64,000 nucleotides of DNA, taken from positions 35,774,001-35,838,000 of the forward strand of contig NC_042997.1 in NCBI RefSeq assembly GCF_006345805.1, written 5' to 3'. A program made the position numbers and the translations under genes. The notes under the pieces were generated by a model. That model did no database searches and was not told the DNA's origin. It worked only from the letters and a program-made list of their open reading frames with translations. Positions 668-57,981 of this stretch are shown piece by piece (within the stretch, counting starts at the first letter, position 1; every line of letters begins with the position of its first letter). This DNA comes from Octopus sinensis. Lineage: Eukaryota.

Positions 668-712
668 CTTACAGCTGTTTCCAGGATATTTATTATATCC
701 CTTCATGGGAGA
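668..712 (-). ncRNA. Degenerate minimal hammerhead motif
   Basis: Minus strand TCT-CCCATGA-AGGGATA(TAATAAA)TATCCTG-GAAA-CAGCTG-TA-AGA. Two core mismatches. Confidence 0.5.
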
Positions 713-1438
713 TGGTGTGAGAGAATGGTAACGCAATAGTAAATTTAGATAACATATGAAATAGAGTGTGAAGTAGAGGAATGAAAATAGATGTGAGATA
801 TGCATGTACATTGCATTTGTAGATCCATTATTTAGGCAGAATGGTATACATAGAAGATTCCAATACCTTCTGATTAAAATCCAATAGTATTTGAAATTGT
901 TCATTCTAAGTATAGTGTTTGTACAGTGCAATTTAATGAAGGGTTTTATTTAAAATGACCGGAAAGTAAGAAATGCATTTGTAAGGCCAAATCGAAAATA
1001 GGACGAGAGGAATAAAGAAAAGAGAAAAAAGAGTAGAAAGAAGAAAACAACCGGAGGAGAGGAATGAAGAAGGAGAAAAAAGGAAAACACGAAAAAACAA
1101 GCAAGGAAATATTGAGAGAAAATGTACCAGTCAGTGGTCAGTCAAGATAATTTCAAAGTAGGAATGGGGAGATAAGGATGATGGGGAGAGAAATGTATTA
1201 TAGTGTAAAAAGATAGGAGGATCGGGGGATGATAGAGAGAAAGTATAAAAAGTAAAGTAATGTCAGTTAATTAGTGATAGAGTCTAAGTGATGGGGCAAA
1301 GTGAGGGGTAATAGTATGGAATGAAGAACTTAGGAATATAGATTAGGTGGTTGGACAGGTCAGAGCTTAGTAAATACATACGTGAAAATACATACGTGAA
1401 GATGTATACATATGTATATATTAGACGTATATATATAT

Positions 1439-1598
1439 AGCAATAATAAATCTCTGAACGAGATGTAAACAGTAACCGCTCGACAAGGTAAGCTTCAGTA
1501 ACACCCACCCTTTGTGGTTAGCCATAGTGAGATGGCTGTTATACCTTACATTGTCGAGCGGTTACTGTTTACATCTCGTTCAGAGATTTATTATTGCT
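1439..1598. repeat. Perfect 48-bp inverted repeat with 64-nt spacer
   Basis: 1439-1486 is the exact reverse complement of 1551-1598; pairing extends 5 bp further after one mismatch. Confidence 0.95.
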
Positions 1599-1695
1599 TG
1601 CAGGCAGTTTTTCGAAATCAGTGACGGAAGTTACTAGAAAAACACTTAAGTATTTGCATACAAAGTCTTCCTTTTCATCGTAAACCGGTGATTAC

Positions 1696-1740
1696 CGCCC
1701 GTTGACGAGAGGCAACTAACTCGAAACTGCGGTCCGTGCG
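1696..1740 (+). ncRNA. Minimal type-I hammerhead ribozyme motif (near-consensus)
   Basis: CGCCCG-TTGACGA-GAG(GCAACTAA)CTC-GAAA-CTGCGG-TC-CGTGCG. Core with C3>U, stem II, GUC cleavage triplet, stem I 5/6 paired. Confidence 0.6.
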
Positions 1741-2489
1741 TATCACTTAGGCTTACATAAACAACTGGTACTCATATGTGTATGTACACATGCACACCCA
1801 TATATACGTGTATTTGTATGTATTATCACGCCTGTACACGCAGGTATATATATTTTGCATACATACATACGTTCATATATACACACATACATACATGCAC
1901 GCATACGTACATACATATACATGCACTTATGCATGCACGCATATACACCGAATATAATTAGATGGTTGTGATATTTGAGTATGAGTGAGGAATTAGATAG
2001 GGGTTAAGAGTTAATAAGGTTATTGGGATTACCTAAGGGGTATTGTGGATATATTATGTATAGTTGTTTAGGCATTTGGATTTGTGACACTTCACACTTC
2101 AGCAAAATCATTGCTTATACGACTTTTTGATATGTAGCAGTCAGTAAGTAAAGACGAAAAATGTATGCTCACGTTTACTGCAAAATATTTGTTGCATGAC
2201 TGTATTACATAACAATATTATTGCTTGCATTGTGGTTTCTGCAAAAAGTGATAAAACTGCTTTGAGAAATAGCACGATCTCATGATTGTAGTTGAACGTA
2301 GCATTGTTTTACATTATTTGTGTGTGTTGGAGATATCTACTGTAGTCACGTGTGTATTTACTGAGGATGCTCGGAAGTATTTCGACAAATGTAAGAAAAT
2401 GCCCATAGTCATACTCTGATTACCCAAAAAATATACAACGCACATACGATCGAAGAAGAAGACATACAATCTTAGATATCGAATTGCAT

Positions 2490-3045
2490 ACCTATATATG
2501 AATATATATATATATATATATATATATATATATATAATATATATATATATATATATATATTTATATGTAAGTATGTATACACACACATATATTTGTATAC
2601 ACATATTAATAATAGGAATATATATATATATATATAATCATATCCATATATATATATATATGCATGTATGTATATATATATATATATATATATGCATGTA
2701 TATATATATATATATATATATATATATATATATATATATATATATATATATATATATATTATATATATATATACATGCATATATATTTACATACTTCCGT
2801 GGATGTAGGTGTTTTGTGGACGTGTGTGTAGGTATGTATACACGGAAATAATACTAGTAATAAAAATAATAATAATAATAATAATAATAATAATAATAAT
2901 AATAATAATAATAATAATAATAATAATAATAATAAGGAGAAGAAGAAGAAGAAAGAAGAAGAAGAAGAAGAAGAAGAAGAAGAAGAAGAAGAAGAAGAAG
3001 AAGAAGAAGAGGAAAAAGAAGATGAAGAATACGAAGAAGAAGAAG
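2490..3045. repeat. Compound microsatellite (TA)n / (AAT)n / (GAA)n
   Basis: Direct reading. Confidence 0.95.
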
Positions 3046-55895: not shown

Positions 55896-56128
55896 ACTAC
55901 TACTACTACTACTACTACTACTACTACTACTACTACTACTACTAATAATAATAATAATAATAATAATAATAATAGTAATAATAATAATAATGATAAAATA
56001 ATAATAATAGTAGTAGTAGTAGTAGTAGTAGTAGTAGTACTAGTAGTAGTAGTAGTAGTAGTAGTAGTAGTAGTAGTAGTAGTAGTAGTAGTAGTAGTAG
56101 TAGTGGCAGCAGCGGCAGCAGCAGCAGT
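55896..56128. repeat. Compound microsatellite (TAC)n-(AAT)n-(TAG)n-(GCA)n
   Basis: Direct reading. Confidence 0.95.
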
Positions 56129-56530
56129 GATGACCACAGTATCACAAATGGTATTAGCTGTATAGGGCTGCAGTAATACATTTCTAACATAGATATATGG
56201 CCTAAAACTTAAGAACGTAAAACTTCCTAAGAAAAAACCGTAACGAATTTTATTCGAATCTCTAAATATTCAAACAAGTCCCCATTTGTTCTTATCATAT
56301 GCATGCTCCAGAAATTAGTGGGCAAATTTTAGTCATCTAAATCAGGGCCAAAACTTCACTGGTATTTTATTTTATCGGCTAAGAAGAAATTGATGGGCTA
56401 ACTGATAACGTCCAGAATTCTACTAGTTTGAACAAATAAAACCAATGCATTTAGTGTATGTGTGTGTATGTATATGCATGTATGCATGTATATGTATATG
56501 CATATATGTATATGTATATATATTTGTGTG

Positions 56531-56934
56531 CTCTTTACCCTTTTACTCTTTTATTTGTTTCAGTCAGTTGACTGCGGTCATGCTGGTGCAGCGCCTTTAG
56601 TCGAGCAAATCGACCCCAGGACTTATTCTTTGGAAGCCTAATACCTATCCTATTTGTCTCTTTTACCGAACTGCTACGTTACGCGGACGTAAGCACACCA
56701 GCATCGGTTGTCAAGTGATGTTGAGGGAAAAACACAGACACACAAACATATACACACATACACATATATATACATATATGCGACGGGCTTTTTTCAGTTT
56801 CCGTCTACAAATCCACTCACAAGGCTTTGGTCGGATTGAGGCTATAGTAGAATACATTTACCCAAGGTTCCACGCAGGGGGAATGAACCCGGCACCATGT
56901 GGCTGGTAAGCAAGCTACTTACTACACAGCTACT
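56531..56934 (-). mobile_element. SINE family A (more diverged)
   Basis: Colinear with 45117-45527. Confidence 0.85.
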
Positions 56935-57007
56935 GTGTAATTTTAAATGAGTTGCAAACACTCCTGTGTGTATATATATATATATATATTTAATAATTTA
57001 AAAATAT

Positions 57008-57165
57008 TTTATTTGTTTCAGATATTTGACTGCGGCCATGCTGGAGCACTATCTTTAGTCGAACAAGTCGTCCCCAGAACTTATCCTTTGTAAGCCTAGT
57101 ACTTATTTTATCGATTCTTTTGCTGAAACGCTAAGTTACGGCACGTAAACACACTAGCATCGTTT
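57008..57165 (-). mobile_element. SINE family A 3' fragment
   Basis: TTGACTGCGGCCATGCTGGAGCAC..GTAAGCCTAGTACTTAT..CTAAGTTACGG. Confidence 0.75.
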
Positions 57166-57946
57166 GTCCTTTTTGTTTGTTTGTGCGCATGTGTGAGGAT
57201 TAGTATGTGCGTGTGTGTATATGTGCCTATACATGCATGCATGTTTGTGTATATATAAGGTCATGTGTGTTTCAGTCGTATGTGTGCTTGTGTATTCGTG
57301 TGCTATATATATATATATTATATATATATATATATATATATATAATATATATATATATATATGTGTATATATATATATATATATATATATAATATATATA
57401 TATATATATATTATATATATATTCATACGCCCACCCACACGCACATACATACTTCTAACTACACACACACACACGTAAACACACTCACACACACATATTT
57501 ATATATACACCTACACACTCTCACATACATACCTACATCTATCTACATAATGGCCCACTAACTATTTTACTCGTGTAAACTGTGGGTATGGTATCTACTA
57601 TGTATACTTCCTATTTAGTATAGGGGAAGTTTCTTTTATGAGAACGTACTCCCGTACTAGTGTGAGTGTTCGGCCCTTTGGGTGCTTGGATAAGATGGGG
57701 ATATCAAGTTGACACAGGTTGCCTCCATGTTAGTCCTTGACAGGTTAGTAGAATATTGAGGACTGTTTCTTGTCGTCATATTGTCTCATATTGTATCTGG
57801 CGTGTATATATATATATATATATATATATATATATACACATATATATAGTTAATCCAAACAAGAAAGCACAAAAAAACACGACAACGCGAGGACGTGGAA
57901 CAAATGTAGTATTATTGGACGCTCAGGAAAGAAGGAAAGAGGGAGG

Positions 57947-57981
57947 GTTTAACGTTTCGAGCGGAGCTCTTCGTCGGAAAC
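57947..57981 (-). ncRNA. Ultra-minimal hammerhead motif
   Basis: Minus strand GTTT-CCGACGA-AGAGC(TCC)GCTC-GAAAC-GTT-AAAC. Palindromic AACGTT in place of stem III; U4>C. Confidence 0.55.

What the first reader, a model, noticed from the sequence alone, without database searches (positions are those of the whole stretch)
668..57981. At least seven minimal hammerhead-ribozyme motifs from about five short non-coding element families in 64 kb
Seen: type-I hammerhead geometry (stem I - CUGANGA - stem II - GAAA - short palindromic stem III - NUH - stem I') at 668-712(-), 1696-1740(+), 10574-10634(-), 23500-23575(+), 24665-24702(+), 53526-53585(-) and 57947-57981(-). Stem III is always reduced to a self-complementary or near self-complementary 4-8-mer (CAGCTG, CCGG, AACGTT, CTCGGAG, CTGCGG). 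Most motifs lie within about 60-150 nt of a (TA)n or related tract. Known: minimal hammerheads with palindromic stem III occur in Penelope-like element pseudo-LTRs and can cleave as dimers. Inference: the genome carries several non-autonomous, ribozyme-processed retroelements (Penelope-derived or retrozyme-like) that accumulate at TA microsatellites. Each copy here has 1-2 core defects, but sister copies are mutated at different positions, so the family consensus appears intact.
Basis: partly seen in the sequence, partly recalled or inferred. Interest (0 to 1): 0.78.

Follow-up and report, generated by a model that had tools for sequence, protein, structure and literature searches.

The report
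Hammerhead-tipped ends of Penelope-like retrotransposons
The hammerhead-ribozyme motifs are real, and they are the 3' tips of truncated Penelope-like jumping genes sitting in TA microsatellites, a known kind of element, although the most numerous families carry altered catalytic cores that likely cut RNA weakly or not at all.

Summary
In detail: all seven motifs are there, and an eighth and ninth (a perfect-core inverted pair, 61478-61829) were missed. Each lies in a dispersed repeat whose majority sequence keeps hammerhead geometry with a palindromic stem III. The reading as short non-autonomous families is mostly wrong. Six of seven families (B-G) connect upstream, in at least one genomic copy, to Penelope-like coding sequence: Hydra-type by motifs for B, C, D, G; Neptune-type for E, F. 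Copy E carries an endonuclease remnant in the window itself. Copies have fixed 3' ends at (TA)n, variable 5' truncation, inverted arms and two-site tails, the known Penelope-like signature. Only family A (355-nt non-coding tandem unit) is retrozyme-like. Consensus cores are not all canonical: U3-A8 (A, E), U4C (B, F); a sister family of F has A6 in only 139 of 13,600 exact matches. 5' ends do not pile up at the cleavage site (1 of 59), so templates were uncut or circular. Known class, new members; cleavage untested.

The parts
608..1427 (-). Family B: 3' end and 3' UTR of a Hydra-type Penelope-like element, ending at (TA)n 588-607
   Evidence: 80% identical to L254 5699-6521, whose upstream sequence encodes a GIY-YIG C-terminus
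666..713 (-). Hammerhead B; family majority CCGAUGA (U4C), A.G at base of stem II, CAGCUG palindrome; this copy has G5C
1439..1492 (-). Family A inverted arm carrying the tail end (+167 to +220), abutting (TA)n 1428-1439
1490..1756 (+). Family A main arm: part of a 355-nt non-coding unit, nested in element B, 3' part lost
1696..1740 (+). Hammerhead A; family majority UUGACAA (U3-A8), CUGCGG palindrome; this copy has G8 and a stem II mismatch
1757..2085 (-). Upstream continuation of element B, 5'-truncated near 2085
   Evidence: 80% identical to L254 5346-5668
10535..10652 (-). Family C main arm ending at +48, at (TA)n 10519-10536
10574..10634 (-). Hammerhead C, canonical core CUGAAGA/GAAA/UU, CUCGGAG near-palindrome
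10653..10748 (+). Family C inverted arm carrying the tail end (about +118), at (TA)n 10747-10772
23214..23665 (+). Family D: 5'-truncated 3' UTR of a Hydra-type element, followed by TA tract
23500..23575 (+). Hammerhead D; family majority canonical; this copy has A14G and U16.1C
23744..24130 (+). Degraded Neptune-type linker + GIY-YIG endonuclease coding remnant of element E (frameshifts and stops), starting at a TA tract
   Evidence: tblastn E 3e-26; translation
24131..24757 (+). 3' UTR of element E ending at (TA)n
24665..24702 (+). Hammerhead E; family majority UUGAAAA (U3-A8), CCGG palindrome; this copy has A9G
53417..53602 (-). Second family C copy, single arm ending with the tail at (TA)n 53399-53416
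53526..53585 (-). Hammerhead C (second copy), core intact, stems I and II decayed
57849..58050 (-). Family F: last about 200 nt of a Neptune-type element with a CA-rich 3' UTR, ending at a TA tract
57947..57981 (-). Hammerhead F, minimal type (CG insert), CCGACGA (U4C), identical to family majority
61446..61668 (-).
61674..61978 (+).

Best explanation
The motifs are type-I hammerhead sequences in the 3' terminal repeat of Penelope-like retrotransposons, left behind as 5'-truncated 3' ends that were likely inserted into (TA)n by the elements' own reverse transcriptase and GIY-YIG endonuclease. Shown: family membership, fixed 3' ends at TA tracts, variable 5' ends, inverted arms, two alternative 3' termini (tail), and linkage of six of seven families to coding sequence. 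Inferred: the endonuclease nicks TA DNA; reverse transcription starts at one of two internal RNA sites 40-220 nt downstream of the ribozyme, runs through the uncut (or re-ligated) ribozyme and usually stops early; priming on the second strand makes the inverted arm. Inferred: a single motif cuts poorly because stem III can form only between two copies, so cleavage would be limited to tandem transcripts or need protein help. Family A is a non-coding 355-nt unit that likely borrows the same machinery (non-LTR retrozyme type).
For: Repeat status: 418-3018 first-look candidates per query, 40 scored each; exact-pattern counts 4,585 for F and 140 for G, 0 for reversed controls. Core state among top-scoring loci after dropping 5 duplicate loci: strict canonical core C 22/30, D 23/28, G 29/30, B 7/30, F 1/30, A 0/29, E 0/28; with the described U3-A8 and U4C variants A 24/29, B 24/30, E 12/28, F 27/30. 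TA tract at a fixed distance after the cleavage site, against control windows: B 22/30 vs 8/116, C 25/30 vs 22/120, D 10/28 vs 11/108, E 12/28 vs 7/112, F 27/30 vs 10/120, G 28/30 vs 15/116, A 9/29 vs 18/116. Inverted arm upstream: A 14/29, B 9/30, D 9/28, E 12/28, G 16/30, F 3/30 (none of the three covers the F 3' end), C 30/30 (selected by the query); two termini A about +174/+220, C +48/+118, G +42/+158. Coding link, same strand upstream: E 9 of 30 loci including the window; G RT and EN in L252, EN in L184, L192, L196; B 1 of 30 (L037/L254); D 6 of 25 upstream-selected loci; C 1 of 30 (L289); F RT-EN in L354, and of 20 loci found with its C-terminal coding DNA 10 reach the F UTR and 3 show the whole F hammerhead within 1.5 kb. 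Independent route: a GIY-YIG search (149 matches among 150 scored of 5,029 candidates) gave intact 775-883 aa frames; the two scanned carry RVT_1 (just under cut-off) and GIY-YIG (over cut-off); 5 of the 30 loci fetched show one U3-A8 hammerhead family with a CAUG palindrome downstream of the frame, about 60 nt before (TA)n. Covariation: sister subfamily A2 has C3-G8 where A1 has U3-A8 (CG 7, UA 6, UG 1 of 14 rows). Stem III segments give no monomer hairpin but self-duplexes of -1.7 to -11.1 kcal/mol. Literature match: PMC4209133, PMC8557442, PMC11167929.
Against: No cleavage, RNA end or circle was observed. Links for B and C rest on one locus each. Clade names rest on diagnostic motifs, with no tree. 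Loci are the best matches to the window copy, not a random sample. Within-family stem covariation is slight: one pair with a change on both sides, one event between two subfamilies; the cross-family stem I test (32 of 32 pairs, 2 of 40,320 permutations) is partly circular because stem I pairing was a selection criterion. TA enrichment is weak for A. No autonomous partner sharing sequence with A was found. Window motifs gave no Rfam hammerhead row in what was shown.
Confidence: 0.88

Rival explanations
1. All families are short non-autonomous, ribozyme-processed units (retrozymes or SINE-like) that spread through cleaved monomers or circles.
For: Family A is a closed 355-nt unit in partial tandems with no coding link in 60 loci. 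Many F copies begin near -110 and look like 200-nt SINEs. One contig of a guessed RNA run goes back 355 nt in A, which a tandem copy explains equally well.
Against: Six of seven families continue upstream into long UTRs and RT/GIY-YIG sequence, with scattered 5' ends.
Confidence: 0.08
2. The elements are Penelope-like, but the hammerhead fold is kept mainly as a binding or positioning element for the reverse transcriptase; cleavage is dispensable or lost in the most successful families.
For: F has U4C in 82 of the first 100 listed of 4,585 matches. A sister family has A6 in only 139 of 13,600 exact matches while position 7 varies freely. B, E, A2 and many D copies have a non-standard pair at the base of stem II. 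No 5' pile-up at the cleavage site. PMC11167929 found catalytic mutants did not affect insertion in vitro.
Against: C3-G8/U3-A8 covariation, a pair of the active fold, is kept; C, D, G keep canonical cores; U3-A8 is active and U4C viable in a viroid (PMC3088659); protein-assisted cleavage is reported (PMC11167929). Compatible with the best explanation, differing only in what the motif does.
Confidence: 0.3
3. Chance matches to a loose motif in AT-rich, microsatellite-rich DNA.
For: At low scores the window does not stand out from shuffles (23 vs mean 13, max 25 at >=10). Three of seven sites fail the descriptor.
Against: Excess at high scores; family majorities are closer to the hammerhead consensus than the window copies; same position in every family, and in intact elements found through their protein.
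Confidence: 0.01

Closest known systems
Hydra clade of Penelope-like elements (Craig et al. 2021, PMC8557442)
   Same: C-terminal GIY-YIG, DKT motif, CxCX5C linker, CxxC and CxH around conserved E and N, hammerhead near the 3' end, (TA)n insertion; families B, C, D, G. The paper's supplement lists a complete Hydra-1 from an octopus with (TA)n preference.
   Different: 3' UTRs here reach about 0.9-1.3 kb; B has U4C. Whether any family equals a catalogued consensus was not tested.
Neptune clade of Penelope-like elements
   Same: RT then CX2-5CxxC linker then GIY-YIG with CCHH, TA targeting; families E, F and the intact 781-aa frames.
   Different: U3-A8 (E and intact family), U4C (F) and A6U (sister of F) cores fixed in families of thousands of copies.
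Minimal and palindromic-stem-III hammerheads of metazoan PLEs (Cervera and de la Pena 2014, PMC4209133)
   Same: Missing or palindromic helix III, extra nucleotide after A9, U3-A8 variant, mostly single motifs of truncated elements, opposite-strand pairs 100-700 bp apart.
   Different: U4C and A6U families and the A.G or C.A pair at the base of stem II were not seen in the parts read.
Non-LTR retrozymes (PMC7229834; bioRxiv 10.64898/2026.07.22.740005)
   Same: Family A: about 355-nt non-coding unit, one type-I hammerhead per unit, monomers to short tandems, co-occurring with PLEs.
   Different: A shows PLE insertion marks directly (two 3' termini 46 nt apart, inverted 5' arms); no long arrays seen; stem III is palindromic; circles not shown.

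Membership tests
Type I hammerhead ribozyme | Core CUGANGA / GAAA / NUH around three stems | tested here: met
   Strict in C 22/30, D 23/28, G 29/30; A, E as U3-A8, B, F as U4C
Type I hammerhead ribozyme | Covariation of paired positions | tested here: inconclusive
   3:8 pair CG 7, UA 6, UG 1 across two A subfamilies; stems differ between families yet pair (partly circular)
Type I hammerhead ribozyme | Reaches Rfam Hammerhead_1 cut-off | tested here: inconclusive
   No hammerhead row for the G pair or in the 150 of 337 rows shown for the window; genome-wide 8 of 74 scored candidates passed, none is an A-G motif, one near-cut-off-passing locus (L344) is a distant C relative
Type I hammerhead ribozyme | Self-cleavage | not testable with these tools
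   Needs in vitro assay or RNA end mapping
Penelope-like element, endonuclease-positive | RT followed by GIY-YIG endonuclease upstream of the hammerhead | tested here: met
   E, F, G in several loci; D in 6 of 25; B, C one locus each
Penelope-like element, endonuclease-positive | 5' truncation, inverted 5' arms, optional tail | tested here: met
   tail seen in A, C, G
Hydra clade (B, C, D, G) | DKT, CxCX5C linker, CxxC/CxH flanking E and N, no CCHH | tested here: met
   G: DKT and CNCRIKSKC in L252/L253; B, C, D: C-terminal CxxC..E..N..CxH only, D with a decayed linker; definition
Hydra clade (B, C, D, G) | RT phylogeny with reference elements | not tested
   No reference sequences were fetched
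Neptune clade (E, F) | CX2-5CxxC linker and CCHH in the endonuclease | tested here: met
   F-linked frame in L354; decayed in the window's E remnant; no tree
Non-LTR retrozyme (A) | Non-coding 150-450 nt unit with one hammerhead, in tandem | tested here: met
   355-nt unit, two to three partial units in L358, L359; no coding link in 60 loci
Non-LTR retrozyme (A) | Expressed as cleaved monomers and circular RNA | tested here: inconclusive
   Contigs of four guessed RNA runs cover A; contigs cannot show ends or circles
Non-LTR retrozyme (B-G) | Non-coding closed unit | tested here: not met
   Continue into long UTRs and coding sequence

The most novel reading that the evidence does not exclude
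In this genome the most prolific Penelope-like families have fixed catalytic-core changes (U4C in a family of over 4,500 exact copies, A6U in 99% of 13,600) while keeping the fold, so the hammerhead has become a reverse-transcriptase docking structure rather than a cutter; and family A, a 355-nt retrozyme with Penelope-type tails and inverted arms, is direct structural proof that animal retrozymes are inserted by Penelope machinery.
Probability: 0.3. Interest if true: 0.6.

Novelty: new member of a known kind. Interest (0 to 1): 0.32.

Why it matters
What hammerheads do in Penelope-like elements is still open. This genome offers natural variants side by side (canonical, U3-A8, U4C, A6U) with thousands of dated copies each, plus intact partner proteins, so the question can be tested directly. 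It also shows that many short 'SINE-like' repeats beside TA tracts here are truncated Penelope-like ends, which bears on repeat annotation. The class itself, its hammerheads and its TA targeting are published.

Tried and rejected
Rfam scan of the whole window was swamped by microsatellite matches to microRNA models; only 150 of 337 rows were shown. Family C first looked like a MITE with terminal inverted repeats; variable junctions and single-arm copies show it is a two-arm insertion. I first took the B, C, D, G proteins for Nematis-type from recall; the motifs point to Hydra. The GIY-YIG hits downstream of F and D in the window and loci are separate neighbouring insertions. The scan hits at 59213(-) and 60524(-) are two copies of an AT-rich local duplication with a non-standard core and were not accepted. 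Run search: no RNA holder listed; contigs of guessed RNA runs cannot show ends. The pattern was mis-specified and is uninformative; one search is the proper test. Alignment A1 held two wrong-strand rows and was replaced by A2. No earlier findings of this scan were returned. The organism was not established by any search; that it looks like a cephalopod is my recall from its repeat content.
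Full report
Setting. The window lies at G000:C1:35774001-35838000 in a 2.72-Gb genome. It is about 33% GC and dense in microsatellites. No call named the organism.

Observation. 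The seven stretches are present as described. A relaxed descriptor, written after seeing them, found 5 sites at score >=22 against a mean of 0.075 in 40 shuffles and 10 at >=18 against 0.83; at >=10 there is no clear excess (23 against 13, max 25). Six of seven sites are within 150 nt of a TA tract, against 24% of random positions.

Families. Each site is part of a dispersed repeat: A (1696), B (668), C (10574 and 53526), D (23500), E (24665), F (57947), and G (the new pair), with 418-3018 first-look candidates per query, of which 40 were scored and 30 fetched. These loci are best matches, not a random sample. After dropping five duplicate loci, the strict core is present in C 22/30, D 23/28, G 29/30, B 7/30, F 1/30, A 0/29 and E 0/28. 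A and E carry U3-A8 and B and F carry U4C; counting these gives A 24/29, B 24/30, E 12/28, F 27/30. The window copies of A, B, D and E have decayed from these majorities; the C copies keep the core; F equals its majority. A sister subfamily of A has the canonical core in 23 of the 24 copies parsed out of 30, so the 3:8 pair covaries (CG 7, UA 6, UG 1 of 14 distinct rows; one event). All stem III segments are self-complementary, fold no monomer hairpin and can pair between two molecules.

Anatomy. 3' ends are fixed and meet TA tracts more often than control windows: B 22/30, C 25/30, D 10/28, E 12/28, F 27/30, G 28/30, weakly A 9/29, against 6-18% in controls. 5' ends are scattered. An inverted arm lies upstream in A 14/29, B 9/30, D 9/28, E 12/28, G 16/30, F 3/30 and, by query design, C 30/30. 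A, C and G have two 3' termini: about +174/+220, +48/+118 and +42/+158 from the cleavage site. In the window A, the first C copy and G are such two-arm insertions, and A is nested in B. TA lies at both ends of C, E and G, including the truncated 5' end of E, which favours a target over an element-made tail (inference).

Coding links. A GIY-YIG search gave 149 matches among 150 scored of 5,029 candidates, with intact 775-883 aa frames; two of these were scanned and carry RT and GIY-YIG matches. Five of the 30 fetched loci show one U3-A8 hammerhead family downstream of the frame, about 60 nt before a TA tract. With these proteins, the window's E copy has an endonuclease remnant at 23744-24130 (E 3e-26), 535 nt before its hammerhead; 9 of 30 E loci show the same arrangement. 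G joins RT and endonuclease sequence in L252, and endonuclease in three loci. B joins an endonuclease C-terminus in 1 of 30 loci, C in 1 of 30, D in 6 of 25 loci selected with upstream sequence. F joins an RT-endonuclease frame in L354; of 20 loci found with that frame's DNA, 10 reach the F UTR and 3 show the whole hammerhead within 1.5 kb. Motifs place G, and by the C-terminus B, C and D, with Hydra, and E and F with Neptune; no tree was built. A is a closed 355-nt unit in monomers and short partial tandems, with no same-strand upstream coding hit in 60 loci.

Is the RNA cut? Searching with only the part downstream of the cleavage site, 1 of 30 A copies and 0 of 29 measurable G copies begin at the site. 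The templates were therefore not linear cleavage products; uncut or circular templates both fit. F has U4C in 82 of the first 100 listed of 4,585 exact matches. A sister family, not in the window, has 13,600 exact matches with positions 4, 6 and 7 left free, of which 139 have A6 with a pyrimidine at 4; it ends at TA about 100 nt downstream and has endonuclease hits upstream in 4 of 30 loci. Four guessed RNA runs hold A as contigs, which cannot show ends.

Mechanism. Most likely the element's endonuclease nicks (TA)n, reverse transcription starts at one of two internal sites downstream of the ribozyme, passes through it and stops early; priming on the other strand makes the inverted arm. The palindromic stem III would restrict cleavage to tandem transcripts or protein-bound RNA. 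Structure and linkage are shown; nicking, priming and cleavage are inferred from published systems.

Literature. PMC4209133 (parts 1-2 of 4 read; one of two supplements searched, no octopus entry there) describes minimal and palindromic hammerheads in PLEs, U3-A8, opposite-strand pairs and low activity. PMC8557442 (passages, section 11, supplement search) defines Hydra, tails and TA targeting and lists an octopus Hydra family. PMC11167929 (parts 1-2 of 4) shows internal priming at two sites, protein-assisted cleavage and insertion unaffected by core mutants. PMC3088659 (passages): U3-A8 active, U4C weak but viable in a viroid, A6C below 0.1 per min. PMC7229834 (passages) and bioRxiv 10.64898/2026.07.22.740005 (part 1 of 5 and passages, supplements not seen) cover retrozymes and their PLE origin; the latter's main text has no mention of tails or target sites. 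PMC13282606 (passages) does not mention ribozymes. PMC6155905 (passages). Five searches listed no paper on hammerhead families of this kind of genome or on A6U; repeat libraries and unseen supplements may already hold these families.

Verdict. Real, well explained, a known class with new members. The residual interest lies in the fixed core variants of high-copy families and in family A.

Noticed in passing
L473-L502 (G000:C1, many sites): Sister family of F with a hammerhead-shaped motif whose position 6 is U: 13,600 exact matches, only 139 with A6; ends at TA about 100 nt downstream; endonuclease hits upstream in 4 of 30 loci.
   Followed up: partly
L024:1640-2250: Tandem made of one A1 unit (U3-A8 core) followed by one A2 unit (C3-G8 core), a chimera of two subfamilies.
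   Followed up: partly
L342, L345-L348, L350-L353: A further hammerhead family (CUGAAGA core, CAUGUG loop region) that passes or nears the Rfam Hammerhead_1 cut-off; two copies 431 bp apart on C16; no coding hit in its loci.
   Followed up: no
window 57601-57792 (-): GIY-YIG endonuclease C-terminal remnant of another Penelope-like family directly after the TA tract that ends F; no hammerhead recognised downstream.
   Followed up: partly
window 38117-40347 (+): Frameshifted non-LTR retrotransposon: RT frame (529 aa stop to stop) followed by a frame that looks like a restriction-like endonuclease (label from recall); remnants of a similar element near 31736-33326.
   Followed up: no
window 28433-29279 (+): Broken mariner-like transposase remnant (label from recall).
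   Followed up: no
window 59050-59330 and 60357-60640: Near-identical local direct duplication about 1.3 kb apart.
   Followed up: no
window 55387-55430 (-) and 44443-44489 (-): Short matches to E UTR (86% over 44 nt) and B upstream (80% over about 50 nt) next to TA tracts, possibly further truncated ends.
   Followed up: no
G000:C12650:156865-172796 (L470, L471): Three two-arm G insertions about 8 kb apart with no coding hit, likely a segmental tandem duplication rather than an element array.
   Followed up: partly
L241-L250: Many near-identical intact 781-aa Neptune-type frames, suggesting a recently active family; a second frame or long 5' region lies upstream.
   Followed up: partly
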